A DNA stretch of 64,000 nucleotides, from IMG/VR virus record IMGVR_UViG_3300037657_000053, positions 25,024 to 89,023 of that record. One strand, 5' to 3'. Positions 22,452 through 53,939 of this stretch are shown in pieces. A program made the translations under genes and the position numbers. The notes beneath the pieces were generated by a model. It was not told where the DNA came from. It was given only the letters and a program-made list of their open reading frames with translations, and ran no database searches. The stretch's first letter is position 1; the number at the start of each line of letters is the position of its first letter. This stretch comes from a virus.

Positions 22452-23867
22452 ATGTCCGATAAAGATATCAAGGCTGAGTTCATATATGATAGTGCAAATG
22501 AGATAATTGTGATCCAAGCCGCGAAGGGCGACGCGAAGAAGCGGAAAGAGCTCGTTCATCGAATCGCCGCCGACGAGTTTTTTGTTCCGAACCACGGGCC
22601 GATCTGGCGAGCTCTTCGGGCGATGAGCGATCGAAACCTTGAGCTCACTCCCGACGTCGCGCGTCAACTTATTCTCAAAGAAGGTGGAACCGAAGAAGTC
22701 GTAAGCTACTTCGACGCGATCGCGGCTCGAGAGGTTCCGAACCTCGATTTTCATCTCTCGACTCTCCAGTGGGATGCCACGAGAGCTCGGGTGCTCAAGT
22801 CGGGTGCTCCTAAGCTTCTCGCGTCGCTTCAAGACCCTCACGCTTCGCAGGGCGATGTGATGTGTTTCGCTCGTTCTCTCGCTCGTTCTCTCGAGGGCGG
22901 CGACCGTCGATTTATGCACCGGCCTCCTGAGCTTTATCGCAGCTATCGAGCCGAGCGATCGGCCCGTAGAGTGAAGCGGAACGTCTTCCCTCTTGGGCAT
23001 GAAGATTTCGATCGGAATCTCTCAGAGGGGTTCATGCCCGGGAGAACGACCGTCTCAGCGGGGCTTTCGGGGGCTGGGAAGTCGACGGTTTGGATCGCCT
23101 TTGCGGTCATGCTCGCGAAGCTCGGGCGGCGCGTTCTGTGGTGCTGTTGGGAGATGGACGCTCACTCTGTTCTCGACGTTGCGACTTCGCACATGACCGG
23201 AATTGATCTCACTGCCAATATTCAGGGTAATACGACCGATGAGGAAGAAACGAGACTTGACAAGGCGACGGCTTGGATTCTTCGTCGAATCGTTTTCATG
23301 GCGAATCCCTTCTATGCAATCGAAGAGAGCGCGAAACCGTCAAATGCTCGGAACCTTGACGTTCTTGAGGGATATATCACCGAGTCGGGTTGTGATGTGG
23401 CGATCTATGATCTTTGGGAAAGGATGCTCGCCTATTCCAAGCCTGACGACGTGACGAAGGCTCTCTATAGAATGCAAGCGATGCACCGGGAATATTCGGT
23501 TCACGGTGTGATCATTCAACAATTGCATTTGAAGGACGTCGAGAACCGAGCCGACAAGCGACCGACGAGAGCGGCGATCAAGGGTGTCGGTTCATATGTC
23601 GAGGTTGCGGATCTGATCATCGGCATTCATAGAGAAGGTCAATTCAAGAACGTTCAAGATAACACGATCGAAACCATTTGTTTGAAGCAACGTAAGGGGC
23701 GCCCAAATTGGGCGGTCAGGTGGGATTGGGATGGGCCGACTTGTTTCGTTGGTAACCCAAGAGAAGTGTCTTATGATCCAGGTCTCGAAAATTCGGCCGA
23801 GATCGGAGATATCGGGAGCATTCAAACGAAGAAGAGTCGTCAACAAGTCGGGAGAAGAGATCAATGA
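22452..23867 (+). CDS. dnaB: Replicative DNA helicase, DnaB family
   Basis: FFVPNHGPIW N-terminus, GLSGAGKST Walker A, RPTRAAIKGVGSYVEVADLI, KQRKG. Confidence 0.85.
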   Translation: MSDKDIKAEFIYDSANEIIVIQAAKGDAKKRKELVHRIAADEFFVPNHGPIWRALRAMSDRNLELTPDVARQLILKEGGTEEVVSYFDAIAAREVPNLDFHLSTLQWDATRARVLKSGAPKLLASLQDPHASQGDVMCFARSLARSLEGGDRRFMHRPPELYRSYRAERSARRVKRNVFPLGHEDFDRNLSEGFMPGRTTVSAGLSGAGKSTVWIAFAVMLAKLGRRVLWCCWEMDAHSVLDVATSHMTGIDLTANIQGNTTDEEETRLDKATAWILRRIVFMANPFYAIEESAKPSNARNLDVLEGYITESGCDVAIYDLWERMLAYSKPDDVTKALYRMQAMHREYSVHGVIIQQLHLKDVENRADKRPTRAAIKGVGSYVEVADLIIGIHREGQFKNVQDNTIETICLKQRKGRPNWAVRWDWDGPTCFVGNPREVSYDPGLENSAEIGDIGSIQTKKSRQQVGRRDQ

Positions 23868-24028
23868 GCGATTTTCAAAAGAGGATCGTGAGGAATAGTT
23901 ACAATCGGCTTGAATTGTTATTGAAAGCGGTTCGAGACAAGAATGAAAGAGCCCGCCTTCTCGAACAACTCAAAGAGGAACGAGCGATTGTCGATGCGAG
24001 CTTGAAAGTCGATGTTCCCTCAAATTGA
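23864..24028 (+). CDS. Small coiled-coil protein (54 aa, not in ORF track)
   Basis: MSDFQKRIVRNSYNRLELLL...; fills the gap between DnaB and primase with overlaps at both ends. Confidence 0.55.
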   Translation: MSDFQKRIVRNSYNRLELLLKAVRDKNERARLLEQLKEERAIVDASLKVDVPSN

Positions 24029-24995
24029 TATCGAGACTTTCCTTCGGAACCTCGGGCTCGTTGCCCGATACGTTCCTTCGGCGCGAAAGTGGATCGCGGC
24101 TTGTCCGAATCCGGCTCATCGGGGCGACACCCCGAAAGACAAATGGGAGCAATGGATATTTCGGCAAGGTGTGATCGCTTCGTGGTCGATCAACGATCGG
24201 CCGGGCGAGCGGGGGCACGGCTCGCACCATTGCCATAGCTGCAAGTTCGGCGGTGGCCCGTGGGAATTGGCGGCGATGGTTTGGGGTTGCACTCTTGAGG
24301 AAGCCGGGAAGAAGATCGGCGAGTTCTTTCGTCGCCCGATGTCTCTCGAGGTTCCTCGGGTCACGATCCGAACCTCTCAAGAGAAGAAGGTCTTCGAGCT
24401 TCCTTCGGGGGTTGTGATCCCCGGGCCCGGGGGTCGGTGGTTCGGGCCTGCTCTTCGTTATCTCGAGAGCCGGGGGATTACTCGTGAACAAGCCGACAGA
24501 TGGGGGCTTGGCTACGCGGTAAAGGGGCGACTCGTGAATCGAGTCATTTTCCCCGTTTGGACGGAAGGCGAACTCAGAACCTACTCGGCTCGGGCGATCG
24601 CCCCTGGGATGAAGCGGTATGATGCCGGGCTCGAGAAGCTCGGGGCGCAACCGAAGCGGGCTCTCTTCGGTGAGCATCTTTTCGACCGGTCGATCGGGAT
24701 CGTCACGGTTGCGGAAGGTTGCCCCTCGACTCTCGCTCTCGAACGGGCCGGGGCTCCGAATCCGGCCGGTATGCTCGGGAGCTACCTCACCCCCGACCGA
24801 GCTCGAATGTTGTCGTCCTTCCCGGCCGTTCTCATCGCGACCGATCCCGACGCGGCCGGCGAGAAGGTCGCTCAATGGATAGACGTTCTTTCGCGGCGCG
24901 CGGAGGTCCGTCGGATTTCGCTCGAGCTCGCCCCCGACGATACGCCCCCGGCAGAGCTCTATCGTAAAGTGCAATCCGTTCTTGACACTTTGTAA
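24012..24995 (+). CDS. DNA primase (zinc finger + TOPRIM)
   Basis: CPNPAH...HCHSC zinc motif, YLESRGI, RVIFPV, VAEG, DPDAAG. Confidence 0.85.
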   Translation: MFPQIDIETFLRNLGLVARYVPSARKWIAACPNPAHRGDTPKDKWEQWIFRQGVIASWSINDRPGERGHGSHHCHSCKFGGGPWELAAMVWGCTLEEAGKKIGEFFRRPMSLEVPRVTIRTSQEKKVFELPSGVVIPGPGGRWFGPALRYLESRGITREQADRWGLGYAVKGRLVNRVIFPVWTEGELRTYSARAIAPGMKRYDAGLEKLGAQPKRALFGEHLFDRSIGIVTVAEGCPSTLALERAGAPNPAGMLGSYLTPDRARMLSSFPAVLIATDPDAAGEKVAQWIDVLSRRAEVRRISLELAPDDTPPAELYRKVQSVLDTL

Positions 24996-25490: not shown

Positions 25491-25530
25491 TTGACTCTTT
25501 GTGAGGGCACCCCGTATAACTGAATCATCG
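25491..25530 (+). promoter_or_regulatory. Sigma70-type promoter, divergent member of the early cassette family
   Basis: TTGACT-18 bp-TATAAC followed by TGAATCATC, matching the cassette tail AGAATCATC. Confidence 0.6.
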
Positions 25531-25587
25531 GGTCGGCGATCGGCTCGAAGGGTCAAACCCTCAAGGCTCGGAACGAAAGGTGAAACC

Positions 25588-27609
25588 ATGTCAACTGTCC
25601 CCGCTACTGCTGAAGATCTTCTCGCCGGTCTCAATGCCGAGCAGAGAGAAGTCGTCGAGTTTTTCACAGGGGCCGCTCTCGTCGTCGCGGTTGCGGGTTC
25701 GGGCAAGACCCGCGCTCTCGTTCATCGGATCGCTTATCTGATTAGAGAGCGCAATGTGAATCCCGGCGAGATTCTTGCGGTCACCTTCTCGAAGAAGGCG
25801 GCCGAAGAGATGAACGAGCGGCTCCGGTCGCTCGGGGTCTACGATTGCCGAGTTGGAACGTGGCATTCGTTGTGCTGGGAGATCATTCGGAAAGAATGCC
25901 CGGAGTATCAAACTGAATGGGAGCTCGACACGAAGGATCGATTCCGCGTCGTCGTCAAGACCGCTATCGGTTGGCAGGGGATGAAGTGGCAGGGTGCCGA
26001 TCTGCAAACGATTCTTTCCTTCATCGGGATTTGTAAGAGTCGGCTCGCCGAACCGGGAACCCCCGAAGCCTTCGCGATCGCTCAAGAGCTCTTCGACTCG
26101 AACCCGTGCGGGAAGAACGATCCGCACCTTCTGAGCGAAGCCTATTTCAGATCTCAAGAGGGGGCCGAGCAACGTCGGATCTTGACCTTCGACGATATGC
26201 TCGTGATCGCCTATCGCCTTCTGTGCGACGAAGATGTGAGGCTTCGTTGGTCCGGTCGCTTCAATTTCATGCTTCAAGACGAGGCGCAAGACGAGAACAT
26301 GGCTCAGGTCGCGATTGCTGAGAAGCTCGCTCGCGATCACGGGAACTATATGTGCGTTGGCGATCCGGCTCAGTCGATCTATGGGTTCCGTGGTTCCGTT
26401 CCCTCGAAGCTTCTCGCCTTCGAGATCGAATGGAACGCTCGCGTGATCCGAATGAGTAAAAATTACCGTTCGGTGGACGCGATTCTCGGCGCGGCGAATG
26501 GGGTGATCCGGGCGATGGACCCGACGACTCATCTCGGGGTCATGATGGAGGGCTGTAGGGGCGACACGACTGAGATCAACGTGATCGAGCTCGAAGATAT
26601 GGACGAAGAGGGGCGGGCGATTGTTGACGAAATGAAGGCTCGTCATGAGTCGGGCGCCGAGTGGTGCGATATGGCCGTTCTCTATCGCACGAACGCACAA
26701 TCTCGTGGTCCGGAAGAATTTCTCATTGCTAACCGCGTTCCCTATGTGGTGATCGGCGGGACGAATTTCTACAACCGGAAAGAGGTCAAAGACCTTCTTT
26801 CTTATCTTCGCGTCGCGGCCGACCGTGCGAATGAAGCCGACTTCAAGCGGTGCATCAATACTCCCTTCAGATATCTCGGGAAAGCCACCGTCGATCATTT
26901 CGTTGGGGATCGTCGTCCCCGCGAGAATTGGACGGCTTCGGTTCGCCGCGTCGCCGATTCGGGTCGTGGGATTCAGTACCGACAGAAGACGGCCGCCTAT
27001 GAGTGGGCCGGTCTCATTGACTCGATCGCTCAGTCGATGATGATCCGTGAAAAGGCGCGTCTCGACTTCGAGACCCGTCTCATTCTCGAAGACTCCGAAC
27101 CCGATGCGGTTCGCCCACGCATCCGAGATCACCTTCCCGCCGCGATTCTTGAGAGGGTGATCAAAGAGACTGACTTCGTGAAGTATCTCACTCGAGACGA
27201 GGGCGCCGAGACGGTCGAGAATAACCGCGTGAGTAACGTTCGCGAGCTCGTGCGGGCCGCCGAACGGTTCACGACGGTACATGAGCTTCTCGACTATATC
27301 GACGAGACCGTTCGGGCGGCAGAAGAGGCGTCGAAGGATCACGACGCGAACCGCGTAACGCTCTGCTCGCTTCATAGGTCGAAGGGTCTCGAGTGGAAGT
27401 CGGTTTGGATCGTCGGTGCGAACGAGAAGATTCTGCCTCACGGTCGCGCGACTGATATCGAGGAAGAGCGCCGCCTTTTTTATGTTGGCGTGACTCGCGC
27501 TATGAATGAACTTACCATCTCTCGGGTAAGAATTGCGGCATTCGGTGCGCGAGTGATCGGGCTCGAACCGTCTCGCTTCCTTGCCGAAGCCGGTCTCGAG
27601 GTGCTTTAG
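25588..27609 (+). CDS. uvrD: UvrD/PcrA SF1 helicase
   Basis: LNAEQ, AVAGSGKT, DEAQD, VGDPAQSIYGFRG, NYRS, SKGLEW, EERRLFYVGVTRA; ATG 25588 with RBS AAAGGTG. Confidence 0.95.
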   Translation: MSTVPATAEDLLAGLNAEQREVVEFFTGAALVVAVAGSGKTRALVHRIAYLIRERNVNPGEILAVTFSKKAAEEMNERLRSLGVYDCRVGTWHSLCWEIIRKECPEYQTEWELDTKDRFRVVVKTAIGWQGMKWQGADLQTILSFIGICKSRLAEPGTPEAFAIAQELFDSNPCGKNDPHLLSEAYFRSQEGAEQRRILTFDDMLVIAYRLLCDEDVRLRWSGRFNFMLQDEAQDENMAQVAIAEKLARDHGNYMCVGDPAQSIYGFRGSVPSKLLAFEIEWNARVIRMSKNYRSVDAILGAANGVIRAMDPTTHLGVMMEGCRGDTTEINVIELEDMDEEGRAIVDEMKARHESGAEWCDMAVLYRTNAQSRGPEEFLIANRVPYVVIGGTNFYNRKEVKDLLSYLRVAADRANEADFKRCINTPFRYLGKATVDHFVGDRRPRENWTASVRRVADSGRGIQYRQKTAAYEWAGLIDSIAQSMMIREKARLDFETRLILEDSEPDAVRPRIRDHLPAAILERVIKETDFVKYLTRDEGAETVENNRVSNVRELVRAAERFTTVHELLDYIDETVRAAEEASKDHDANRVTLCSLHRSKGLEWKSVWIVGANEKILPHGRATDIEEERRLFYVGVTRAMNELTISRVRIAAFGARVIGLEPSRFLAEAGLEVL

Positions 27610-28205
27610 TGGGTCGCTTTGAATCCGACCTTCTCGGGCTCCGTTCTGGTGAGCTCTCTTTCGAGATCTTCACCAGGCGGAACCGGGAACGGTTCGCGAA
27701 GTGGGCATCCTATTTCATTGACCGTTACCGTCCACATGGGCTCGATATCGACGATCTCGTTCAAGACGGGTTGATCGAGGCATGGCGAGCCGTCGACGGT
27801 TGGGAAGAAAGACTCGGAGTTTCGATTCAACGCCGAGTCGAATACAAGGTCGGTGAGCGTATGGATCGAGAGGTGAAGCGAGCTCTCGGGTGGCCGCGAC
27901 GCGACCGAGACAAGCCGGCTCAACAAGTTTTCGCTCCTATGGCGATCGAATGTGCTGTTTCGTCAGCGATAGGAGTCGAGAAGAGGATCGAGCTCGCCGC
28001 CGTCGTTTCAACGCTTTCGTGTCCTCTTGAACGCGACGTAACGATCGGGATTGGGATGGGGGCTTCGATTCGGGCGGTTGCTGCGTATCTCTATTCTGAC
28101 CCCAGAAAACGACTGTGGTACGAATTCGATTCGGGAGATCATGCCGTTCGATGCGTTCGGGCGGCCGTCAAAAAGGTAACGAAAACGTTGGAGAAAGCAC
28201 CATAG
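27609..28205 (+). CDS. Phage sigma70-family factor
   Basis: Region 2-like LDIDDLVQDGLIEAWRAVDGW; degenerate region 4-like LERDVTIG...SIRAVAAYL. Confidence 0.65.
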   Translation: MGRFESDLLGLRSGELSFEIFTRRNRERFAKWASYFIDRYRPHGLDIDDLVQDGLIEAWRAVDGWEERLGVSIQRRVEYKVGERMDREVKRALGWPRRDRDKPAQQVFAPMAIECAVSSAIGVEKRIELAAVVSTLSCPLERDVTIGIGMGASIRAVAAYLYSDPRKRLWYEFDSGDHAVRCVRAAVKKVTKTLEKAP

Positions 28206-29754: not shown

Positions 29755-32442
29755 TTGACGACTAAATTCGTTTCCGCTTGGACGGAAAAAAACAAGACAT
29801 ATCTCGTTGAAAGAATCAATGAAGACACTGTGAAGATTCGAGCGGTTCCCGCTCGCTTCTCGTTCTTCGTGACAGGTCTCGACGAATATGATCGGATGGC
29901 TCTCGGGCGTGATCCGGGGGTGATCGGCGTGATCGATCAAGGTCGATACACTCGGGTCAATTGTCGAAATCATTGGACGAGGAAGGAACTTGTAGAAGTT
30001 CTCGAAGAAGCGATTGTTCGGAACGAGTCGGGGGCGAAGATTCTCGAGGCCGACGTGTCACCTCTTCGACGGCTCTTGAGCGATGTTCCGAATCTCGAGA
30101 TCGATCCCGAACCGAATGTTGTTTTCCTCGATCTTGAGACTGACTCGCGGGCGACATTTTCCGAAGCGACACGGGGCGAAGCTCGTCTTCTCTCGTTCGC
30201 GGTTTGTGACGCGGCCGGGCGGGCTTCCTCGGGCCTTCTCGCTGCCGATACTGACGAAGCCGAGCGTTCCCTTTGGGGCGAGTTTTTCGATGTTCTGAGG
30301 GGCTATGACTGCGTTCTCGCGTGGTATGGATCGGGCTTCGATTTTCTCGTGATACAGAATCGATCCGTTCGGCTTGGAGTGACTCTCAACGGCCGAGAGA
30401 TTCAATGGCACAGATGGACGTGGTTGGATCATCTTGAGCTCTTCATGAAATATAACAAGCTCGGAACGGGAGAGGAAAAGACTTCATACGCTCTCGATCA
30501 CGTCGCGCAATATCTACTTGGTGAAGGGAAGGGGAAGCTCGCCTTCGATAGCTCGAAGACATGGGAAGCTTGGGCGGCGGGCGGCGAGGAACGCGAGAGA
30601 CTTCTTCGATACAATGAGCAGGATGCCGCTCTTCTTCCGAGAATCGAAGAGAAGACCGGCTTCCTCGCTCTTCACTTGGCGGTCTGTCAGATTTGCCGAG
30701 TTTTTCCAGATACCGAATCGCTCAATGCGACTATTCAGGGCGACGGATTTCTTTTACGACTAGGGGAGGAACACGGCATTCGTTGGCCGACTAAGAAGCC
30801 GGTCGACGATGAAGCGGTTTATGAGAAATTCAAGGGCGCTTATGTAATGGAACCCGGGCGTTATGGTGCGATTCCGACCGTTCATGTTGCTGATTTCGCC
30901 GGTCTATATCCATCGATCATGCGAACGTGGAATATGAGTCTTGAGACGAAGGTGAATCTTCGGGGTGTTTATGACGACATTCCCGAAGATGTAGAACTCG
31001 AACCCCGAGTCAAATCGGGTTTGTGCCAACTCCCGAACCGGGCGACGTGGTTCAAGACGACCGAAGAGGGGATGTTCAAGATTGCTCTCGATCGATTGGT
31101 TTACAAGAGGGCCGAGTATACGGCTCTTATGAAGAAGGAAACCCCCGGCTCGAAACAACACGAGAAGTTCAAGCGTCTCTCGCAAGCTTTCAAGACGGTC
31201 GCGAATAGTTTCTATGGGATCGTCGGCTCGCCGTTCTCGAGGTTCTTCGACGTCGAGATCGCGGAAGGTGTCACTCAAACCGGGAAGTGGCTTCTTCAAA
31301 ACGTGATTCGCGAGTCACAAGCGGTCGGCTTCGATCCATTCTATGGTGACACCGATTCGGTGTTCGTTGCCGGCTGCACGCCCGAAGAGTTTCGAGCTCT
31401 CGTTGATGCTCTCAACGAGTCATGGTCGAAGCGGCTCGAACCGTGGGGGATCGGTAGTCACTTCATCGATCTCGACTTCGAGAAGACTTTCTCTCGAATT
31501 ATCATGATCACGGCGAAGCGATATGTCGGGAAGTTCCTCATGTACAAGGGCAAGGCGGCCCCCGACGACGCGCCCCCCGAGGTGAAGGGACTGGAATTCA
31601 ACCGGGGCGATTCGATCCGTCTTGCCCGGGATTTCCAACGTCAAGTGATTGATCGGTTACTTGAAAGGGACTTGCCTTCGGCGGCCGATATGCGAGATCT
31701 CGTTCTCGATTGGAAGAACCGAGTCTATCGGGGTGAGCTCTCGCTTGAAGATGTTGTGATGAGTCAATCTCTCTCGAAGTCTCTTAGAGAATACTCTGTG
31801 CAGAGCGCGCCGCCTCATGTGCGGGTTGCTCGTCTCATGGTCGAGAGAGGGGAACAGATCGGCGAAGGGGCTCGAGTTCGATTTCTCGTGATTCCCGGCG
31901 ATGGCTCAAAGCTCAATCCAATTCCGGCTTCTGATCCAGGCGCTCTCGAGAGGATCGATCGGATCTATTATTGGGGGAGGAAGGTCTATCCGCCCGTTCA
32001 ACGTGTTCTGGAGAAGGTCTATCCGAAAGAGCAGTGGGCCGAGACGACCAAAGAGAAAAGAAGCCGCGAATTTGAAGCCAAGGGTCAAGGCACTCTCTTT
32101 GATACGATAGGGAGCCATTCCACCGTGACACCACGAAGGAGGAAGAAGAGGCGAGTCGATGGGCTCGAGATCACGATTGTTGAAGGATCGCCTTTTACAG
32201 ATGGGGGCGCCGAGAAGGTTCGTCGAGAGCGTCTTCTCAAGGCGATTCACACGGCGATCGATGCGAACCCCGGTGAGGTTCCTGTGACCGTCGTTGTCGC
32301 GTTCAAGAGCTATACCGAAGGCAAGGAAGAGACGGTGAAGGTTTACATCGACACGAAGACGACGATCGCCGATACACCCGCGAGTCGGGCCGCTCTCATG
32401 AGAATTCTCTCGAAGCCCGATCGGTTCGAGTTTTTGTCATAG
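29755..32442 (+). CDS. DNA polymerase family B with 3'-5' exonuclease and C-terminal extension
   Basis: DLETD, GFDF, YNEQD exonuclease motifs; DFAGLYPS, KTVANSFYG, YGDTDS, KRY. Confidence 0.95.
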   Translation: MTTKFVSAWTEKNKTYLVERINEDTVKIRAVPARFSFFVTGLDEYDRMALGRDPGVIGVIDQGRYTRVNCRNHWTRKELVEVLEEAIVRNESGAKILEADVSPLRRLLSDVPNLEIDPEPNVVFLDLETDSRATFSEATRGEARLLSFAVCDAAGRASSGLLAADTDEAERSLWGEFFDVLRGYDCVLAWYGSGFDFLVIQNRSVRLGVTLNGREIQWHRWTWLDHLELFMKYNKLGTGEEKTSYALDHVAQYLLGEGKGKLAFDSSKTWEAWAAGGEERERLLRYNEQDAALLPRIEEKTGFLALHLAVCQICRVFPDTESLNATIQGDGFLLRLGEEHGIRWPTKKPVDDEAVYEKFKGAYVMEPGRYGAIPTVHVADFAGLYPSIMRTWNMSLETKVNLRGVYDDIPEDVELEPRVKSGLCQLPNRATWFKTTEEGMFKIALDRLVYKRAEYTALMKKETPGSKQHEKFKRLSQAFKTVANSFYGIVGSPFSRFFDVEIAEGVTQTGKWLLQNVIRESQAVGFDPFYGDTDSVFVAGCTPEEFRALVDALNESWSKRLEPWGIGSHFIDLDFEKTFSRIIMITAKRYVGKFLMYKGKAAPDDAPPEVKGLEFNRGDSIRLARDFQRQVIDRLLERDLPSAADMRDLVLDWKNRVYRGELSLEDVVMSQSLSKSLREYSVQSAPPHVRVARLMVERGEQIGEGARVRFLVIPGDGSKLNPIPASDPGALERIDRIYYWGRKVYPPVQRVLEKVYPKEQWAETTKEKRSREFEAKGQGTLFDTIGSHSTVTPRRRKKRRVDGLEITIVEGSPFTDGGAEKVRRERLLKAIHTAIDANPGEVPVTVVVAFKSYTEGKEETVKVYIDTKTTIADTPASRAALMRILSKPDRFEFLS

Positions 32443-32487: not shown

Positions 32488-33084
32488 ATGGCAACGAGAC
32501 GCAAAATCGGTTCCGGTGAAGAGAAGGACGTGCTCGAGACGAAGCCGTTTCAGGGTTCAAGCGAGCAGGACAATAACTCGGTTTCCTACGCTGAACCGGG
32601 GATCGCTTGGGGCAATGTGATTCGAGACGTTCTCAGGATCGATAATCCGGCTTGGCTCGCGAAGCGATTGCGAGGCGAGCTTACGTTGAGCGACGAGGGG
32701 CGTTCTTCCTACGGCTCCCTTCTCGCTGCTCTCGACAGGTCGGCGAGGAATTACGACGACGCTTACATGCTCTATCGCGGGGCGAAGGTCGAGGAATCTC
32801 GATTCGCTCTCGAGCTCCGAGAGCGATTCGAGGTCATGAAGGAACACGCATCGTCTGAGTTGATGGACGAATACAAGGAGAAGAAGCGGCGGTCTCCGAC
32901 GACCGAGGACATAGAAGATCGAATGATGTCGAGTTGGCCCGATGAATACAGGCACCTCAGAACAAAGGAAGCCGAACTCCATGCGGCGGTGAGAAGTTTG
33001 GAAACGCTTGCGAAGGCGTGGTCGTCCAGGTGCGCCGATCTTCGAGCAATGGCCGATATGTTCACGGCCAGAAAGAACGGGTGA
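32488..33084 (+). CDS. Helical protein, possible recombination mediator (UvsY-like)
   Basis: Coiled-coil character, PTTEDIEDRM; lies between polymerase and SSB/RecA. Confidence 0.45.
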   Translation: MATRRKIGSGEEKDVLETKPFQGSSEQDNNSVSYAEPGIAWGNVIRDVLRIDNPAWLAKRLRGELTLSDEGRSSYGSLLAALDRSARNYDDAYMLYRGAKVEESRFALELRERFEVMKEHASSELMDEYKEKKRRSPTTEDIEDRMMSSWPDEYRHLRTKEAELHAAVRSLETLAKAWSSRCADLRAMADMFTARKNG

Positions 33085-33088
33085 AGAC

Positions 33089-34438
33089 ATGGGTCTCGGA
33101 TTGGCGAGCTTTCTCAACCACAACGAAGGGTCTGCTCGAAAATTTCTCAAGGACTGGAAGAAGAAGGGATCGATCGTGGTGTGGCTCTATACCCGAGCAG
33201 ATATCGCTTGGGCTTCGTGGAATCATTCCTTTGTAGCATATGGAACCTATAAGAACGACAAGGACGAAGAGGTCGAGTGTCTCAAGTATCCCCGCTTTGT
33301 CTCGCCCGATCCCGAGGTGGTCCATCAGAATCAATACTTCCGCAACGAGGGTGACGATTCGATGCAAATACCACCGTCGCTCGATCCATTCCTTCGCCTT
33401 CGGGAATGGCTCCGACTCGATTGCGATTTGCCTCTCGATACCGTCATCTTCCGTTGGGAGAACCCCCACCCGAAGCCCGGGAAGAGCCCGATCATCGAAT
33501 GGCAACGTGGGCACCTTGCCCGGTTGGTCGATCGTGGGCGGTACAACTTCGGTGCGTCGCTCGACACGAAACTTGAGTATTTCTTCGTCGTTGTCGACAA
33601 CGAGAAACCACAAGATGGGGCCCAGATCGTTCGGGGAACCAAGCTTCTCGGAGACGTGATGAAGAAGGAGATCGGACATCAGATCGAGAGCGATGGTGAG
33701 AAGGGCAATCCGCTGATCCATCCGTATGCGTTCAAGTGGGTCTATGACGATTCGGCCGGTTCTCCGATGGATTCATACCGCGCGTTTCGCTATAACGCGG
33801 CGGAACTCACACCGCAGATCCGCGAAGCGATCACGAGCTCCGAGTATCCCGATCCGTCGCAAGATTGCAAACCTCGGGCGGGCGACAAGGCGAAGATCCG
33901 GGCTGCCATGGAAGCTGCCGCACAAGTCGATCTCCCATGGGATCGACTCTTCGTTCCCGAGTGGGAAGACGAAGAACCCGGCGATTTCAACTATGGTGCG
34001 AATGCGGGCTCTCAGGTGGTCTCTCAGGGCTCGGGAACCTCGGGGGGTGCCACGGGGCGGCCGGCTTCTCAGACGGGCTCTCAGGGGCCGTCTCGCGAAC
34101 GGGAGAGCCATGCGGTGAGCGGCGCGCAATCTGCCCGTCGGAAGAAGGTCAACAAGCCCGAGCCCCCGCCTCCGAATGTCGAGATGATCAAGTGCGATGA
34201 CTGCGACACGATGCTTCGACCGGATCAAGCGAAGTGTCCGAATTGTGGAGCGGAATACGAGGTCGATTCTGAACCCACCGTTTCCTCCAATTCGGTGCAA
34301 CAGGAAACCCGGGTTTCCAACGGAACGACCGGAACGACCGGAACGACCGACGTCACATGCTGGTCTTGTGGTGGTCCCGTCGTGAAGGGAAGTTGCACGA
34401 ATTGCGGGCTCGAAGCAGGAGACGAAATTCCGTTCTAG
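33089..34438 (+). CDS. Putative single-stranded DNA-binding protein with zinc ribbons
   Basis: C-terminal GDEIPF SSB-type tip; four CxxC motifs; next to RecA; ATG 33089. Confidence 0.6.
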   Translation: MGLGLASFLNHNEGSARKFLKDWKKKGSIVVWLYTRADIAWASWNHSFVAYGTYKNDKDEEVECLKYPRFVSPDPEVVHQNQYFRNEGDDSMQIPPSLDPFLRLREWLRLDCDLPLDTVIFRWENPHPKPGKSPIIEWQRGHLARLVDRGRYNFGASLDTKLEYFFVVVDNEKPQDGAQIVRGTKLLGDVMKKEIGHQIESDGEKGNPLIHPYAFKWVYDDSAGSPMDSYRAFRYNAAELTPQIREAITSSEYPDPSQDCKPRAGDKAKIRAAMEAAAQVDLPWDRLFVPEWEDEEPGDFNYGANAGSQVVSQGSGTSGGATGRPASQTGSQGPSRERESHAVSGAQSARRKKVNKPEPPPPNVEMIKCDDCDTMLRPDQAKCPNCGAEYEVDSEPTVSSNSVQQETRVSNGTTGTTGTTDVTCWSCGGPVVKGSCTNCGLEAGDEIPF

Positions 34439-34541
34439 ATGCCGTTACGTCTTACTCTCCTACTTTTCTTTCTTTGATTCTTCCTTGATTCTTCCTCACA
34501 AAACACGTTCCTCTCGTCCGATAATCAATCGAGAGGTGACA

Positions 34542-35786
34542 ATGGCAACGCGACGGAAGAAAGTCGTGAAATCCGAAGAAGAGAATGGTAATCACTTCGT
34601 CGAGTCGGCGTCGTGCGATGAAGAAGGGGATGAGGCTTTCTTCGATTCCTTGACCCCGTGTAGCGAAGAGGTTCTAGATCGAATTCCGGCCGGTTGGTCA
34701 GGAGACTACATTGAAGCGGCCGGCAAACTTGAAGGTTGGGGTCAAGCTGGAGATGTTCTCGACGAGATCATTTCTGTTCGGACGGTTTTTCCCGATTTCA
34801 ATCGAGCGACTCATGTAGGCGGGATTCCCGTTCGTCGAATTCATACGGTTCACGGTCCGACTCACGGCGGGAAGACTGCGTTTGTTCTAGGGCTCGTGAA
34901 GAGTTTCGTCGACGTGGGATATCTCGGCGGCTTCGTTGATGCGGAATTCTCGCTAGGGAAGGAATTCGGCGAAGAGATCGTTTGCGACTTGCGGAAGAAG
35001 CCGAACTTTCTTGCTGTTCGTCCGGAGAACTATGAGGAGACGATCGAGAAGGTCGATACTTTCTTGGTTCGTGCTGGGAAGGTTCGAGACAAGTTTCCCG
35101 ATGCGAAATCAATTCTTGTTGTCGATTCGATCAACAAGCTAGTTCCGAAGCGAGAGCTCGACAAGTTCCTGAAGGAAGGACAGATCAACGAGAAAGGAGC
35201 GGTCGAGCTCACGAAGGGGCATCATGGGAGATATCGTGCGGCTCTCAATCAAGCGTGGCTGGATCATCTCACCCCGCTCGTTGCCCGAGCGGATTGTGCG
35301 CTCATTCTGATCGCGCAAGAACGCGACGATCAAGACACTACCGACTTCTTCAAACAAGAATTCAAGGTGAAGGGCGGCGCGGCTCTTCTCTTCGACGCTT
35401 CGCTCGTGATTCGTGTGATGAAGAGTTCGCCCGTCTTCATCAAACCGAGTGACGAGAAGAAGAACGAGAACATTTGCGGATTCGGACATCGGGTGAGGAT
35501 CTGGAAAAGCAAAGTCTCTCATATGGAGGGTCGTTATACCGATTGCATCTTTCATCTATCGAACGGGCGACTCACACCGAAGGGGCTCGACATGGCGCGC
35601 GACGCGATGATCGTCGCGATCAAGGTCGGTGTGCTCTCGCAGTCGGGGGCGTGGTATTCGTATCGTGGTCGCCGAACTCAAGGATTCAACAATATGCTTA
35701 GTCGTCTCGTCGAACGACCGGCTCTTCTGCAAGATTTGCTTGTCGATGTCAATTTCAAGATGGATCGAGAAGCGGGGAGAATCTAG
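34542..35786 (+). CDS. recA: RecA/UvsX recombinase
   Basis: GGIPVRRI, GPTHGGKT, FVDAE, VVDSI, GGAALLFDAS, QSGAWYSY; ATG 34542 with RBS GAGG. Confidence 0.9.
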   Translation: MATRRKKVVKSEEENGNHFVESASCDEEGDEAFFDSLTPCSEEVLDRIPAGWSGDYIEAAGKLEGWGQAGDVLDEIISVRTVFPDFNRATHVGGIPVRRIHTVHGPTHGGKTAFVLGLVKSFVDVGYLGGFVDAEFSLGKEFGEEIVCDLRKKPNFLAVRPENYEETIEKVDTFLVRAGKVRDKFPDAKSILVVDSINKLVPKRELDKFLKEGQINEKGAVELTKGHHGRYRAALNQAWLDHLTPLVARADCALILIAQERDDQDTTDFFKQEFKVKGGAALLFDASLVIRVMKSSPVFIKPSDEKKNENICGFGHRVRIWKSKVSHMEGRYTDCIFHLSNGRLTPKGLDMARDAMIVAIKVGVLSQSGAWYSYRGRRTQGFNNMLSRLVERPALLQDLLVDVNFKMDREAGRI

Positions 35787-35788
35787 AT

Positions 35789-36058
35789 ATGTTCAACTAT
35801 ATCAAGCCGCGACCGTGGGGGGCTCTTGACTTCCTCGGTTCCATTCTTCTCGGGTTCTTGCTCTTTGTGCTCTTCATTGCGGGGGGCTTGCGTCTTCTCA
35901 ACGTGATCAGCGAGCTCGAAGAGGGCGCGTCCGAGTTCGCCTATCAAGCGGCCGTTCTGATCGTATGGTGTCTCGTCTTCAGAGGAATCTCGAATTCCTT
36001 CGTCCGTGGATTCAGACGACGTTGGCGAGAGACTCATGAGGAAGGGTGGTTCAGATGA
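35789..36058 (+). CDS. Small 2-TM membrane protein
   Basis: Two hydrophobic helices; coupled to neighbours. Confidence 0.55.
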   Translation: MFNYIKPRPWGALDFLGSILLGFLLFVLFIAGGLRLLNVISELEEGASEFAYQAAVLIVWCLVFRGISNSFVRGFRRRWRETHEEGWFR

Positions 36059-36807: not shown

Positions 36808-36838
36808 ACCCGGGTTTCCAAGCTCGAAAGGGGAACAT

Positions 36839-46880: not shown

Positions 46881-46951
46881 ACCGGGATAGTTCAGCGGCA
46901 GAACGGCGGACTTTGACTCCGCTCACAAGGGTTCGACTCCCTTTCCCGGTT
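46881..46951 (+). tRNA. tRNA-Gln (anticodon TTG)
   Basis: Acceptor ACCGGGA/TCCCGGT, D arm GTTC/GAAC, anticodon arm GCGGA-CTTTGAC-TCCGC, T loop GGTTCGACTCC; no encoded CCA. Confidence 0.9.
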
Positions 46952-51924: not shown

Positions 51925-52653
51925 ATGACTGAGATAGCGGCAAGATATCTCTCGGCAACGCCTCCATTGGAGGGTATCGAGATGGTTGGTGTGGGTGTCA
52001 GATTGACGGCGACGTCTATCTGTTCGAGGTATGCGCTCTTTGGCGTGCCGGCTAGCCGGTTCGATGTTCTTATTGAGGAAGGGCAACCTTCTTTCGGATG
52101 GGCGGTTGAGGTGGTAAGTAAGTCTGGTCGCTATGACGGTCGGACGCGCGATCGATTGACGTTCTGCCATCGGCGAGGTGGGATGCTTCTACATTCGGAA
52201 TCGGGCGTTTGCGCTTGCAGTATCGTTCGCCGTCGTCAAACAACGGTCTCGCTCGTATCCGAATTCGGCCCGGTGTGGTCGGCGACTTACGACACGTTGC
52301 GGTGGCAACTCGATCCGGCCGGGGGGTTGATTCGGATTGTCGGTTGGCATCTTACCAGATATTTCAAGATGCTCGTTGTCGATCATTCCGCGACAGATCT
52401 GGCAGGCGAGATCGAGGCGATGAATCCGAATTGGCGCGCGATGACTCTATCTCAAGTCAATCGGTTGGTCTCTCGGCATTTGTATCGTTTGGCGCGCGAT
52501 ATGGGGTGGAGAAAGCTCACATTGCGCGAGAGGCTTCGACTCGGGCTTGATGAGGCGTCGCCGCAATGGCAACGTGAGAGCGATCTTGGTGTGTTGTATA
52601 GACGCACCGGGTGCGGCGACTTCACGCACCGGTCGGCTCGGGGTGAATCATGA
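51925..52653 (+). CDS. Hypothetical protein
   Basis: Long ORF whose stop overlaps the clamp start; start uncertain. Confidence 0.5.
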   Translation: MTEIAARYLSATPPLEGIEMVGVGVRLTATSICSRYALFGVPASRFDVLIEEGQPSFGWAVEVVSKSGRYDGRTRDRLTFCHRRGGMLLHSESGVCACSIVRRRQTTVSLVSEFGPVWSATYDTLRWQLDPAGGLIRIVGWHLTRYFKMLVVDHSATDLAGEIEAMNPNWRAMTLSQVNRLVSRHLYRLARDMGWRKLTLRERLRLGLDEASPQWQRESDLGVLYRRTGCGDFTHRSARGES

Positions 52654-53939
52654 AACGCATGCGGGCAAAGACACGGATCGCGACCCTCTCGGATTTGTCG
52701 CGACCGATCGTCATTCTCTCGAGGATCGCGAATGCTCGAACCAACGACGAGCGAATCACTGTCTCGAGTCGGGGCAGTGAGCTCGTTCTTTCGGCTTCGA
52801 TCGGGAGGGAATCTTATCGGTTCGATCAAACCGGACCGGTAGCCGGGAAGGTTTGGTTTGAATACCGGGCCGATGCCGAGGGGGCGATCTCTCAAGAGCT
52901 CGGGATCGAGCCCCGTCTCTTCAAGGTCGCGGCCGGTTCGGCAAAGGGGCTCACTCTCGAGGTGAGGAACGAGCCAACCGGCGAGGGGTCGCAAGTTCGG
53001 ATCAAGACGACCCTCGAGATCACCGACGTCGATGGAGTGACGACAGAATGCCTCGCCTTGGGCTCAGATGGGGTCGAGAAGGCCCGAAGCTTCGCAGGGA
53101 ATCCTTGGGGCCGGGCGACAGTGGGCGAGCTCGTGGGGCCTTTCTCGTGGGCATGTCGGGCAATCTCGGATGACGACGGCCGGCCGCACCTTGCCGCTCT
53201 CGCTCTTATCGGCTCGCGAGTGATCGCGACCGATGGGCATAGGCTACACGTCGGGCCGCTCCCTTCGGGCCTTCATGTCGAAATCGAGTCGTTGATTCCT
53301 TCGATCGTTGCCCGAGCTCTTCTCGAGATCTTCAAGTCGAGTTCGCCGTGGGATGAAGTCGTGATCGAGGGGAACGGTGAGGGTCTCATGATCGATGTCG
53401 GGTCTCATTGGTCGATGGCGGTTCGCTTTCCGACTTTGAGCGACAACGGAACCGAAAGGGTCGTTCGCTTCCCATCCTATACCAAGGTGATTCCGAATCC
53501 GTGGGATCGGCCGGGGGGCATGGTAGTGGAGTGTGACTCGGGGCGGCTCTTGAAGGCGATGAAAAAGTCTCAAGGTGTTTTGAAGGGTAACTTCGTGAAC
53601 GGTGTGGTTATCCGTCCCGAGCCGAATCAGGTGAGGATCACGGCCGAGAACACCGACAATAATATTCGGGTCGAGATGAAGGTTCCGGCCGAGACCAGGC
53701 TCGGAAACCCGGGTTTCCTCTACTATGCGAACGTTGACTATGTGATCGACGCCTTGCTCGATTCGGGCGACGTTGAGATCTATATCGGGCCCGAAGCGTT
53801 CGAGGGAACCTATAAGACGGCCGGGGCGAACGCTTGGGTCGACGAAGAAGATAGGAAGGGGCTCGGGTATACCACCGACCCAACCGTCTTTTCTCACGGT
53901 GAGGATACCTTCGCCGTCGTTATGCCGATGAGACTTTGA
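52650..53939 (+). CDS. dnaN: DNA polymerase sliding clamp (beta subunit-like)
   Basis: ISDDDGRPHL...IATDGHRL, FPSYTKVIP, NVDYVIDAL, VVMPMRL C-terminus. Confidence 0.85.
   Translation: MKRMRAKTRIATLSDLSRPIVILSRIANARTNDERITVSSRGSELVLSASIGRESYRFDQTGPVAGKVWFEYRADAEGAISQELGIEPRLFKVAAGSAKGLTLEVRNEPTGEGSQVRIKTTLEITDVDGVTTECLALGSDGVEKARSFAGNPWGRATVGELVGPFSWACRAISDDDGRPHLAALALIGSRVIATDGHRLHVGPLPSGLHVEIESLIPSIVARALLEIFKSSSPWDEVVIEGNGEGLMIDVGSHWSMAVRFPTLSDNGTERVVRFPSYTKVIPNPWDRPGGMVVECDSGRLLKAMKKSQGVLKGNFVNGVVIRPEPNQVRITAENTDNNIRVEMKVPAETRLGNPGFLYYANVDYVIDALLDSGDVEIYIGPEAFEGTYKTAGANAWVDEEDRKGLGYTTDPTVFSHGEDTFAVVMPMRL

What the first reader, a model, noticed from the sequence alone, without database searches (positions are those of the whole stretch)
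32086..32442. Family-B polymerase fused to a clamp motif and a DnaE-like tau-binding C-terminal domain
Seen: after the PolB thumb come QGTLF, a basic linker RRRKKRR and about 95 aa GLEITI...LLKAIHTAIDANPGEVPVTVVV...VKVYIDTKTTIADTPASRAALMRILSKPDRFEF. Known: QxxLF is the beta-clamp binding consensus; from memory the E. coli DnaE C-terminus reads GLAISL...[23 protein letters not shown]...[35 protein letters not shown] and binds the tau subunit of the clamp loader. The two align well by eye. The window encodes a beta clamp, DnaB and primase but no recognisable clamp loader. Inference: a hybrid replisome in which phage PolB docks on the host DnaX complex in place of Pol III alpha.
Basis: partly seen in the sequence, partly recalled or inferred. 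Interest (0 to 1): 0.8.

Follow-up and report, generated by a model that had tools for sequence, protein, structure and literature searches.

The report
Phage PolB carrying DnaE's tail domain

Summary
The ORF at 29755-32442 is an 895-aa family-B polymerase. After its thumb come QGTLF (778-782), RRRKKRR (794-800) and a 93-aa C-terminal domain (803-895).

The same tail occurs on 15 other metagenomic PolB sequences. A clamp-binding-type motif sits at the same place in 14 of the 15 that cover the region.

The "DnaE-like" claim holds, though not by simple sequence search. Pfam, PHROGs, PDB sequence search and BLASTP against E. coli DnaE were all negative or insignificant.
- An AlphaFold2 model (pLDDT 90.5) matches only Pol III alpha C-terminal domains. 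Z is 7.8 for Taq residues 1128-1200 and 5.4 for E. coli 1081-1155; the next chain among 48,161 scores 4.3.
- A profile built only from the phage domains hits DnaE C-termini in bacterial genomes: 17 of 24 matches in Patescibacteria.
- hhalign against unselected DnaE tails gives P 7e-8.

The phage encodes a divergent beta clamp (52650-53939), a DnaB-like helicase and a primase. No clamp loader was found in the 89-kb record, which is about 83% complete.

Docking on host tau is a reasonable inference and was not tested; the host is unknown. The scan noted this same stretch once more in an overlapping window of the same genome, not on other DNA.

The parts
29755..32442 (+). Family-B DNA polymerase gene (895 aa, TTG start)
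   Evidence: PF00136 E 7.7e-51 and phrog_262 E 7.2e-56. The start agrees with the N-terminus of the 73%-identical relative P0003.
30121..30651 (+). 3'-5' exonuclease (RNase H-like) domain, residues 123-299
   Evidence: PF13482 E 1.9e-11.
30745..32016 (+). Polymerase palm/fingers/thumb, residues 331-754, with the YGDTDS motif
   Evidence: PF00136 match covers residues 331-754. The motif is read directly.
32086..32100 (+). Beta-clamp-binding-type motif QGTLF (residues 778-782)
   Evidence: Read. An equivalent motif sits at the same place in 14 of 15 relatives.
32134..32154 (+). Basic linker RRRKKRR (residues 794-800)
   Evidence: Read. A basic run of variable length is present in all aligned relatives.
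32161..32439 (+). C-terminal domain related to the Pol III alpha (DnaE) tau-binding domain; beta-alpha-beta-beta-alpha-beta fold with an (I/L)(D/E)AxPG(D/E)xPV motif
   Evidence: AF2 pLDDT 90.5. VIA-align Z 7.8 against Taq alpha 1128-1200 and Z 5.4 against E. coli alpha 1081-1155. ESM Atlas structural neighbours are DnaE C-terminal pieces. The profile hits DnaE C-termini in genomes. hhalign P 7.3e-8.
52650..53939 (+). Phage-encoded divergent beta sliding clamp (429 aa)
   Evidence: phrog_947 'DNA polymerase processivity factor' E 1.3e-12. 20 of the 21 PDB sequences matched at E<=1 are beta clamps, best E 3e-5. The Atlas model gives TM 0.76/0.86 over 354 residues to a beta-clamp cluster.
22452..23867 (+). 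DnaB-like replicative helicase
   Evidence: PF03796 E 1.8e-17; phrog_19 E 1.7e-27.
24012..24995 (+). DnaG-type primase
   Evidence: phrog_47 E 3.9e-26. The Pfam Toprim_4 and DNAG_N matches are weak and below their cut-offs.

Best explanation
The gene encodes the replicative family-B polymerase of a contractile-tailed phage. Behind its thumb it carries a three-part tail.
1. A beta-clamp-binding motif (QGTLF).
2. A short, very basic linker, probably a non-specific DNA contact.
3. A 93-aa domain that is a true, ancient homologue of the C-terminal domain of bacterial Pol III alpha (DnaE1). [quoted passage not shown]

Shown here: the anatomy, its conservation in 16 PolB sequences, the homology to the DnaE domain, the presence of a phage beta clamp, helicase and primase, and that no clamp loader was found.

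Inferred: the motif binds the phage's own clamp and/or the host clamp. The C-terminal domain tethers the phage polymerase to the host clamp loader through tau. The host complex would then load clamps for the phage polymerase and couple it to the fork, as it does for Pol III alpha.

I put the homology at about 0.9 and the tau-docking mechanism at about 0.45. The confidence given below is for the whole statement.
For: Anatomy.

Family: searches with the tail found 15 further sequences. Every one long enough to show it carries PolB domains. Domain identity to the window's copy is 28-67%.

Clamp motif: at a fixed position in 14 of 15 sequences. The variants (QGTLF, QRTLF, QxxLDF, QLRLDL, SDLPLF) resemble the known penta- and hexapeptide forms. 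QLDLF and QLSLPL are quoted as clamp-binding motifs in PMC4703070 (passage read).

Fold:
- The AF2 model from 14 sequences has pLDDT 90.5 and pTM 0.79.
- Foldseek's top 5 hits are all Taq Pol III alpha, probability 0.97-0.99.
- VIA-align on 998 chains puts five alpha chains on top. Z is 7.8, 7.6 and 7.5 (rmsd 2.2-2.4 A over 71 residues, Taq 1128-1200) and 5.4 and 5.0 (E. coli 1081-1155). The next chain scores 3.8.
- In the search independent of Foldseek, 1 of 48,161 chains reaches Z 5: 2hpi_A at 7.8. The next scores 4.3.
- E. coli residues 1079-1160 are the tau-binding domain (PMC4703070, passage read).
- The ESM Atlas's own model gives 10 structural rows with TM 0.63-0.70. Seven of them carry Pol III alpha families.

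Sequence:
- The phage-only profile A4 matched 24 places at E<=1 in 201 Patescibacteria genomes. Of these, 17 lie 4-49 residues before the stop of a frame that BLASTs to E. coli DnaE at 1e-86 to 1e-109. The best per-genome E is 4.5e-5.
- In Bacillota, 9 of the 30 best places are DnaE C-termini.
- hhalign of A4 against 29 DnaE tails chosen only by their HhH domain gives probability 94.6%, P 7.3e-8 over 57 columns. Without the 4 genomes that A4 had hit it gives 93.1%, P 3.2e-7. The reversed-sequence control gives P 0.06.

Inventory: a phage clamp is present. No clamp-loader family was found (PF13177, PF00004, PF12169, PF12170). In the Walker-A scan, only DnaB, UvrD, RecA and TerL among the annotated genes have the motif. 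The 3 other hits are a neck protein and two short minus-strand ORFs.

Function of the DnaE domain: it binds tau (PMC3919608, PMC3384344 and PMC4703070, passages read).
Against: - No binding was tested, and the host is unknown.
- Tau's polymerase-binding part shares no sequence or structural homology between E. coli and Thermus and binds opposite sides of the tail (PMC4703070). Homology of the domain therefore does not fix the partner.
- In B. subtilis DnaE3 the domain's role differs, and retention at the fork depends on the SSB tail (PMC3919608).
- Pfam's own model of the domain, PF20914, does not match. Nor does the A4 profile find alpha chains among PDB sequences.
- Similarity to E. coli DnaE itself is not significant.
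- The record is only about 83% complete. Pfam six-frame searches missed the divergent clamp, so a divergent loader could also be missed or lie in the missing part.
- A number of viral families with sliding-clamp homologues lack clamp-loader subunits altogether (PMC3201878, passage read), so a loader link may not be needed.
- Z 7.8 is in the range that the tool warns can reflect a common arrangement.
Confidence: 0.45

Rival explanations
1. The domain is a DnaE-type docking module, but its partner is phage-encoded rather than host tau. Candidates are the phage DnaB-like helicase, the primase, an unrecognised connector, or the acidic ...DEIPF tail of the 476-aa protein encoded two genes downstream. 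The replisome would then be largely phage-made.
For: The phage brings its own clamp, helicase, primase, RecA, UvrD and SbcCD. This argues for autonomy. The ORF at 33008-34438 ends in DEIPF, like the tip of bacterial SSB, which I recall as ...DDDIPF. In B. subtilis, DnaE3 retention depends on the SSB C-terminal tail (PMC3919608, passage read). The family has a conserved loop (DGGAE..RR) that DnaE domains lack, which is compatible with a changed partner.
Against: No tau-like or connector protein was recognised. No evidence links the DnaE C-terminal domain itself to SSB tails. A clamp still needs a loader, and none was found.
Confidence: 0.3
2. The domain has no external partner. With the basic linker it acts within the polymerase-clamp-DNA complex, as a second clamp or DNA contact that raises processivity. 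The tail of Pol III alpha touches the clamp in this way in the DNA-bound state.
For: In E. coli the alpha tail swings onto the clamp when DNA is bound (PMC4703070, passage read). The very basic linker next to the domain is conserved in the family.
Against: In E. coli the clamp contact is made by the OB domain, not by the tau-binding domain (PMC4703070). The phage protein has no OB domain.
Confidence: 0.15
3. The resemblance to the DnaE domain is convergent or a chance match of a common beta-alpha-beta-beta-alpha-beta fold. The extension would then be an unrelated phage-specific domain.
For: The fold class is common. Z is under 8. PF20914 and PDB sequence searches do not match. Identity in structural alignments is only 10-16%.
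Against: Other ferredoxin-like chains score only Z 3-4.3. A profile built from phage sequences alone lands on DnaE C-termini in 17 of 24 and 9 of 30 places in two phyla. hhalign against unselected DnaE tails gives P 7.3e-8, against 0.06 for the reversed control. The (I/L)xxHPGxxPV motif is shared.
Confidence: 0.05

Closest known systems
C-terminal (tau-binding) domain of bacterial Pol III alpha / DnaE1 (E. coli residues 1079-1160; Taq about 1128-1200; Pfam PF20914)
   Same: It has the same beta-alpha-beta-beta-alpha-beta fold (Z 7.8 and 5.4) and shares the helix-strand motif ..(I/L)xxHPGxxPV... It also occupies the same place, at the extreme C-terminus of a replicative polymerase and downstream of that polymerase's clamp-binding motif. 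In E. coli the order is motif 920-924, OB domain, then tau-binding domain (PMC3384344, PMC4703070).
   Different: It is attached to a family-B enzyme, not a family-C one. A basic linker replaces the OB domain. It is about 20 residues longer, with a family-specific DGGAE..RR loop and a longer hairpin. It does not match PF20914. Tau binding is untested.
E. coli DNA polymerase II and other bacterial PolB groups with a beta-clamp-binding motif
   Same: They are family-B polymerases with active exonuclease and polymerase sites and a beta-clamp motif (PMC12926913, passage read). I recall that Pol II works with the host clamp and clamp loader.
   Different: No added DnaE-type domain is described for them: the PolB survey PMC7544198 has no occurrence of 'DnaE', 'tau' or 'PolIII' in its main text. 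The phage enzyme is less than 30% identical to the Pol II-type sequences hit.
T4/RB69 gp43 with gp45 clamp and gp44/62 loader
   Same: It is a phage family-B replicase that binds its clamp through a short C-terminal motif (PMC3201878, passage read).
   Different: T4 brings a PCNA-like trimeric clamp and its own loader. This phage has a bacterial-type beta clamp, no loader found, and a folded domain behind the motif.
Phage SPP1 hybrid replisome
   Same: It mixes phage and host replisome parts and requires the host clamp loader tau-delta-delta' (PMC3561973, abstract and passage read).
   Different: SPP1 supplies the helicase and uses host polymerases and the host clamp. Here the phage supplies polymerase, clamp, helicase and primase, and only the loader would be borrowed.

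Membership tests
Family B DNA polymerase (PF00136) | Match to the family model above its curated cut-off | tested here: met
   173.7 bits against a cut-off of 23, E 7.7e-51, residues 331-754.
Family B DNA polymerase (PF00136) | N-terminal DnaQ/RNase H-like 3'-5' exonuclease domain and the catalytic YGDTDS motif | tested here: met
   PF13482 E 1.9e-11 over residues 123-299. FYGDTDSVFV is read.
Pol III alpha (DnaE1) C-terminal tau-binding domain | Fold superposable on solved alpha C-terminal domains | tested here: met
   Z 7.8/7.6/7.5 against Taq (rmsd 2.2-2.4 A, 71 residues) and 5.4/5.0 against E. coli residues 1081-1155. It is the only chain of 48,161 with Z>=5. The Atlas model agrees.
Pol III alpha (DnaE1) C-terminal tau-binding domain | Profile-level sequence similarity to DnaE C-terminal domains | tested here: met
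   17 of 24 places (Patescibacteria) and 9 of 30 places (Bacillota) hit by the phage-only profile are DnaE C-termini. hhalign gives P 7.3e-8 and 3.2e-7 against unselected tails.
Pol III alpha (DnaE1) C-terminal tau-binding domain | Match to Pfam PF20914 (DNA_pol_IIIA_C) | tested here: not met
   No Pfam family at E<=1 for the last 128 residues. The model is narrow: it rings in only 1 of 14 control genomes, E. coli. I therefore file the domain as a homologue of the DnaE domain, not as a member of PF20914 as now modelled.
Pol III alpha (DnaE1) C-terminal tau-binding domain | Part of a C-family polymerase, following its OB domain | tested here: not met
   It follows a PolB thumb, a clamp motif and a basic linker. 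No OB or PolIII-alpha family was found in the protein.
Pol III alpha (DnaE1) C-terminal tau-binding domain | [quoted passage not shown] | not testable with these tools
   The host and its tau are unknown. Tau's binding region is not conserved between model species (PMC4703070).
Bacterial beta-clamp-binding motif (QL[SD]LF / QLxLxL; consensus recalled) | Sequence fits the consensus and is conserved in position among relatives | tested here: met
   QGTLF in the window. 14 of 15 relatives have a fitting motif 40-51 residues after the YYW anchor.
Bacterial beta-clamp-binding motif (QL[SD]LF / QLxLxL; consensus recalled) | Binds the hydrophobic pocket of a beta clamp | not testable with these tools
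   This needs a binding assay or a co-structure.
Bacterial-type beta sliding clamp (DnaN), for the ORF at 52650-53939 | Sequence and fold similarity to solved beta clamps over the three-domain protein | tested here: met
   20 beta-clamp sequences in the PDB match at E 3e-5 to 0.11. TM 0.76/0.86 over 354 residues. phrog_947 E 1.3e-12.
Bacterial-type beta sliding clamp (DnaN), for the ORF at 52650-53939 | Match to Pfam PF00712, PF02767 or PF02768 | tested here: not met
   No match in six-frame searches of the whole record. It is a divergent homologue, not a typical DnaN.

The most novel reading that the evidence does not exclude
A clade of phages has captured the tau-binding tail of the bacterial C-family replicase and grafted it onto an unrelated B-family polymerase. 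The phage enzyme would then take Pol III alpha's seat on the host clamp loader. Host DnaX complex, phage clamp, phage helicase-primase and phage PolB would form a natural chimeric replisome. This would be a polymerase-family swap on a bacterial holoenzyme scaffold, and possibly a way to displace the host polymerase from tau during infection.
Probability: 0.4. Interest if true: 0.85.

Novelty: new variant of a known kind. Interest (0 to 1): 0.68.

Why it matters
The replicative polymerases of bacteria (family C) and of archaea, eukaryotes and many viruses (family B) are unrelated. Their accessory contacts are usually treated as family-specific.

Here a family-B enzyme carries the accessory-binding tail of the family-C enzyme, in the same order (clamp motif, then docking domain). 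This shows that the docking module is portable. It gives a concrete, testable model of how a phage polymerase could use a host clamp loader or compete with Pol III alpha for tau.

The work also adds to what is known of the DnaE domain, which the literature calls poorly conserved and hard to detect (PMC3919608). It has a recognisable (I/L)xxHPGxxPV signature shared across phyla and with these phages.

I found no description of this architecture:
- 0 papers hold 'tau-binding domain' together with 'phage' and 'DNA polymerase'.
- The PolB survey PMC7544198 has no occurrence of DnaE, tau or PolIII in its main text.
- I saw no such architecture in the matched passages of the viral replicase survey PMC3201878 or the 2026 bacterial polymerase survey PMC12926913.

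Supplements were closed and could hold such a note.

Tried and rejected
**Searches with the tail alone that gave nothing**
- Pfam at E<=1 and PHROGs at E<=0.1.
- phmmer against PDB sequences gave only four chance CcdB rows at E 0.64-1.2.
- tblastn against 50,697 GenBank phage records at E<=1 gave nothing.
- The whole PolB against the same phage records gave 604 records. All are under 60% identity, and none of the 25 listed rows reaches past query residue 767.

**Direct comparison with E. coli DnaE**
- BLASTP gave E 5.3 and 13.
- hhalign of the 5- and 14-sequence alignments against the single E. coli tail gave P 0.048 and 0.072.
- hhalign against 43 distinct enterobacterial tails gave P 0.085. 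The 120 listed DnaE hits were 88-100% identical, too alike to make a useful profile.
- An HMM of A4 against PDB sequences gave 10 rows at E<=10, none of them Pol III alpha.

**Structure**
- The first structure job, with 5 sequences, gave pLDDT 60.4. Its Foldseek list had no match at E<=0.001, with 2hpi only at rank 21. I discarded that model.
- With the good model, Foldseek's TM by query was only 0.33-0.44 and no row reached E<=0.001. The match became clear only with VIA-align.

**Looking for relatives with context**
- IMG/VR: 125 pattern hits, 0 confirmed.
- GTDB genomes: 146 pattern hits, 0 confirmed.
- JGI metagenomes: 234 pattern hits, 1 confirmed, L004.
The 79.7-kb and 94.7-kb contigs of P0010 and P0016 could therefore not be read for clamp-loader genes.

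**Rows dropped**
- P0005 (4120 aa, 19 stretches) and P0007 (952 aa, 14 stretches), as repetitive chance matches.
- P0018, near-identical to P0017 in the tail, was left out of alignment A4. P0140 was found after A4 was built.
- L074, cut by its contig end, was left out of the unselected DnaE set. L065, L078 and L079, whose tails look unlike the domain, were kept in it.

**Host identification**
- The phage UvrD as a probe gave 4 loci at 31-42% identity in unrelated taxa. No host can be inferred from them.
- Only Patescibacteria and Bacillota could be sampled with the profile, because only those handles were reachable. Which phylum's DnaE tail is closest to the phage domain is therefore unknown.

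**Complex prediction**
- Phage clamp plus the 128-residue PolB tail: no answer. The score was 0.22 against a mark of 0.32, and the controls were not run. This is no evidence for or against binding.
- I did not send tau: a stand-in from another species would be uninformative, because tau's binding region is not conserved.

**Clamp and loader searches**
- Pfam six-frame searches for the beta clamp were false negatives, as searches show. The negative searches for clamp loader, SSB and tau domains are therefore weak.
- PF00004's one hit (E 0.013, 11.8 bits) lies in the SF2 helicase frame.

**Paper not held**
- PMC3652607 (Liu et al. 2013) was not held. The residues of Taq alpha that touch tau could not be mapped.
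Full report
**What is there.** The window is part of an 89,023-bp virus record, about 83% complete by CheckV, with the window at 25024-89023. The record is a contractile-tailed phage. Outside the window it encodes portal, head protease, adaptor, neck and tail sheath proteins. Inside the window it encodes tail and baseplate proteins and the large terminase.

The ORF at 29755-32442 on the + strand encodes 895 residues. Pfam finds the family-B polymerase domain at residues 331-754 (E 7.7e-51) and an RNase H-like exonuclease domain at 123-299. PHROGs finds 'DNA polymerase' at E 7.2e-56. Neither Pfam (E<=1) nor PHROGs (E<=0.1) recognises the last 128 residues.

**The tail defines a small family.**
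- A word-indexed search with residues 760-895 found one relative, P0003. It is 73% identical overall and 65% in the tail.
- An exhaustive phmmer search of 1.84 billion representatives with the last 102 residues found 5 proteins at E<=0.001. Three are real: P0004, P0006 and P0008, which are fragments. Two are long repetitive proteins that I dropped.
- A profile search among longer proteins gave 13 proteins at E<=0.1, all with PolB domains.
Its PolB has the same tail.
- No relative was found in IMG/VR, in one genome each of 185,579 species, or in 50,697 GenBank phage records.

Across the 14-sequence alignment A4, the domain is 28-67% identical to the window's copy. G19, P41, G42 and V46 are invariant, and the run AIEAHPGDxPV is nearly invariant.

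**The clamp motif.** One QxxLF in a protein of this size is not beyond chance. My own rough estimate is about 0.1 expected; no call computed this. However, 14 of the 15 family sequences that cover the region have a motif of the known types 40-51 residues after a conserved YYW. The variants are QGTLF, QRTLF, QETLDF, QTRLDF, QARLDF, QLRLDL, SDLPLF, SDLPIF and DDLPLF. Only 5 other matches to the same pattern occur elsewhere in these proteins. P0015 has none. This variation fits the penta- and hexapeptide forms of the bacterial beta-clamp motif. The consensus is recalled; QLDLF and QLSLPL are quoted as clamp-binding motifs in PMC4703070 (passage read).

**Is the domain DnaE-like? Negative sequence tests.**
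- BLASTP of the two tails is not significant, at E 5.3 and 13.
- hhalign of the family against the single E. coli tail gives P 0.05-0.07 over 20-25 columns.
- hhalign against a profile of 43 enterobacterial tails gives P 0.085.
- The A4 HMM finds no Pol III alpha among PDB sequences at E<=10.
- Pfam's model of the domain, PF20914, covers E. coli residues 1100-1151 but does not match the phage protein. That model rings in only 1 of 14 control genomes.

Each of these weak alignments nevertheless picks the same register, LLxxLRxxLExHxxGxxPV.

**Is the domain DnaE-like? Fold.** With 5 sequences AlphaFold2 gave a poor model, pLDDT 60.4. With 14 sequences it gave pLDDT 90.5 and pTM 0.79. The topology is strand 5-12, helix 20-39, strands 44-56 and 59-73, helix 77-86, strand 92-96.
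- Foldseek's five best PDB chains are all Thermus aquaticus Pol III alpha (E 1.6e-3 to 8.2e-3, probability 0.97-0.99), although TM by query is only 0.33-0.38.
- VIA-align on Foldseek's best 998 chains puts five alpha chains on top. These are 2hpi at Z 7.8, 4iqj_A at 7.6 and 3e0d_A at 7.5 (rmsd 2.2-2.4 A, 71 residues, chain range 1128-1200), then E. coli 5fku_A at 5.4 and 5fkv_A at 5.0 (range 1081-1155). The next entry scores 3.8.
- In the search that does not lean on Foldseek, one of 48,161 representative chains reaches Z 5. It is 2hpi_A at 7.8. The next is 4.3, and E. coli 5fku_A is fourth at 3.9.
[quoted passage not shown] PMC3384344 (passage read) places the tau site at 1120-1160 and the clamp site at 920-924.
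- The ESM Atlas's own model of this protein, restricted to residues 799-895, has ten nearest structural rows with TM 0.63-0.70. Seven of them carry Pol III alpha families (PF20914, PF14579, PF17657, PF01336, PF07733). By language-model features, 5 of 30 hits belong to a cluster set that carries PF20914.

**Is the domain DnaE-like? Positive sequence tests.** The UvrD probe had given me handles in two phyla.
- The A4 profile is built only from phage PolB tails. Searched against four genomes, it gave one match (E 0.137). That match lies in the last 50 residues of a Saccharibacteria DnaE, whose tail reads ...LKRFIRDNPGDIPVKIVI....
- Against 201 Patescibacteria genomes it gave 24 matches at a per-genome E<=1. 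Seventeen lie 4-49 residues before the stop of frames that BLAST to E. coli DnaE at 1e-86 to 1e-109. Seven lie elsewhere. The six best (E 4.5e-5 to 1.8e-3) are all DnaE.
- Against 201 Bacillota genomes there were 46 matches in 41 genomes. Of the 30 best, which were fetched, 9 are DnaE C-termini, 9-43 residues from the stop.
- For a test free of selection by A4, I took the 30 Patescibacteria DnaE loci with the best HhH-domain (PF14579) scores out of 41 genomes and used the last 95 residues of the 29 that reach a stop. hhalign gives probability 94.6%, P 7.3e-8 over 57 columns. Without the 4 genomes that A4 had hit it gives 93.1%, P 3.2e-7 over 59 columns. With the A4 sequences reversed it gives P 0.06.
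- The set selected by A4 gives 97.1%, P 5.7e-11, but that set is biased.

The shared core is the end of helix 1 and strand 2, (I/L)xxHPG(D/E/N)xPV. I conclude that the domain is a true but distant homologue of the DnaE C-terminal domain. This fits the statement in PMC3919608 (passages read) that the domain is poorly conserved and often escapes detection.

**The rest of the replisome.** The window encodes:
- an SF2 helicase (19903-21414);
- a DnaB-like helicase (22452-23867);
- a primase (24012-24995);
- an HNH endonuclease (25017-25457);
- UvrD (25501-27609);
- a sigma-70 region-2 protein (27609-28205);
- RecA (34485-35786);
- SbcD- and SbcC-like proteins (36046-36807 and 38891-40933);
- ThyX (36785-37489);
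- a PAPS-reductase-like protein (37956-38894);
- a dCTP deaminase (54126-54941).

The 429-aa ORF at 52650-53939 matches phrog_947 'DNA polymerase processivity factor' at E 1.3e-12. It also matches 20 beta-clamp sequences of the PDB at E 3e-5 to 0.11. Its Atlas model aligns over 354 residues with a beta-clamp cluster at TM 0.76/0.86.

No clamp loader was found. PF13177, PF12169 and PF12170 gave nothing. PF00004 gave only an 11.8-bit hit in the SF2 helicase. A Walker-A scan of all ORFs of 80 aa or more gave 7 hits. Four are DnaB, UvrD, RecA and TerL. One is a neck protein and two are short minus-strand ORFs. No OB-type SSB was found. These negatives are weakened by the false negative for the clamp and by the missing 17% or so of the genome.

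**How it most likely works.** In Pol III alpha the order is clamp motif, DNA-binding OB domain, tau-binding domain. The phage PolB has clamp motif, basic linker, then a homologue of the tau-binding domain. The phage makes a bacterial-type clamp, which normally needs a loader, and no loader was found. The simplest reading is that the motif holds the polymerase on a beta clamp and the C-terminal domain ties it to the host clamp loader through tau, giving a chimeric replisome.

What is shown is the anatomy, the homology and the inventory. What is inferred is every binding step. Points against the inference:
- Tau's polymerase-binding regions in E. coli and Thermus share no homology and bind opposite faces of the tail (PMC4703070).
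- In B. subtilis DnaE3 the domain's role differs (PMC3919608).
- A number of viral families with sliding-clamp homologues lack clamp-loader subunits (PMC3201878, passage read).
- The phage family has its own conserved loop, DGGAE..RR, between strand 1 and helix 1 that DnaE lacks.

The main rival is therefore a phage-encoded partner. One candidate is the 476-aa protein encoded at 33008-34438, which ends in ...DEIPF. That resembles the SSB tip as I recall it.

**Known or new.** Hybrid phage-host replisomes are known. SPP1 needs host polymerases, clamp and tau-delta-delta' (PMC3561973, abstract and passage read). Bacterial PolB groups with beta-clamp motifs are also known (PMC12926913, passage read). 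I found no report of a family-B polymerase carrying the DnaE C-terminal domain:
- 0 papers hold 'tau-binding domain' with 'phage' and 'DNA polymerase'.
- The PolB survey PMC7544198 has no occurrence of 'DnaE', 'tau' or 'PolIII' in its main text.
- The viral replicase survey PMC3201878 reports no such domain in the passages matched.

Supplements were closed, and subscription journals are not covered. I rate this a new variant of a known kind: a new domain architecture built from two known parts.

**Limits.**
- Both structural lines rest on predicted models.
- The genome sampling covers two phyla only.
- E-values of the genome search are per genome.
- The host is unknown.
- The one complex job gave no answer (see Tried and rejected).

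Noticed in passing
window 33008-34438 (+): A 476-aa protein encoded two genes downstream of PolB has C-terminal zinc ribbons and ends in ...GDEIPF, which resembles the acidic tip of bacterial SSB (recalled as ...DDDIPF). It has no PHROG match, and its only Pfam hits are the zinc ribbons. It could be a novel phage SSB or a hub-binding protein.
   Followed up: partly
window 52650-53939 (+): The phage beta clamp is so divergent that six-frame searches with PF00712, PF02767 and PF02768 all missed it. PHROGs, phmmer against the PDB and the Atlas structure search found it. It is 429 aa, about 60 residues longer than typical DnaN.
   Followed up: yes
P0006, P0010-P0019 (alignment): Most family members have a CxxC...CPxC zinc-ribbon insertion of about 30-40 residues in the thumb. 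The window's PolB, P0003 and P0004 lack it.
   Followed up: no
window 32200-32240 (PolB residues about 816-829): The loop DGGAEKVRR between strand 1 and helix 1 is conserved in the phage family (G19 invariant, R25 nearly so). It has no counterpart in the DnaE tails aligned, so it may be a family-specific binding surface.
   Followed up: no
L009-L025, L029, L034-L058 (DnaE tails of Patescibacteria and Bacillota): DnaE C-terminal domains of two phyla share the signature L..(I/L)(K/R)..(I/L)...HPG..PV. PF20914, which rings only in E. coli among 14 control genomes, does not capture it. A broader model of this domain could be built.
   Followed up: partly
window 25017-25457 (+): An HNH endonuclease gene (phrog_59, E 4.5e-37) sits between the primase and uvrD genes.
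   Followed up: no
window 36785-38894 and 54126-54941 (+): ThyX, a PAPS-reductase/PP-loop-like protein and a dCTP deaminase homologue are present. This nucleotide-metabolism set may point to modified bases in the phage DNA.
   Followed up: no
P0018 (1287 aa): One relative has the same tail as P0017 (896 aa) but is about 390 residues longer at the N-terminus. This may be a fusion or a gene-calling artefact.
   Followed up: no
window 46881-46951 (+): A tRNA-Gln (anticodon TTG) gene lies just upstream of the terminase region.
   Followed up: no
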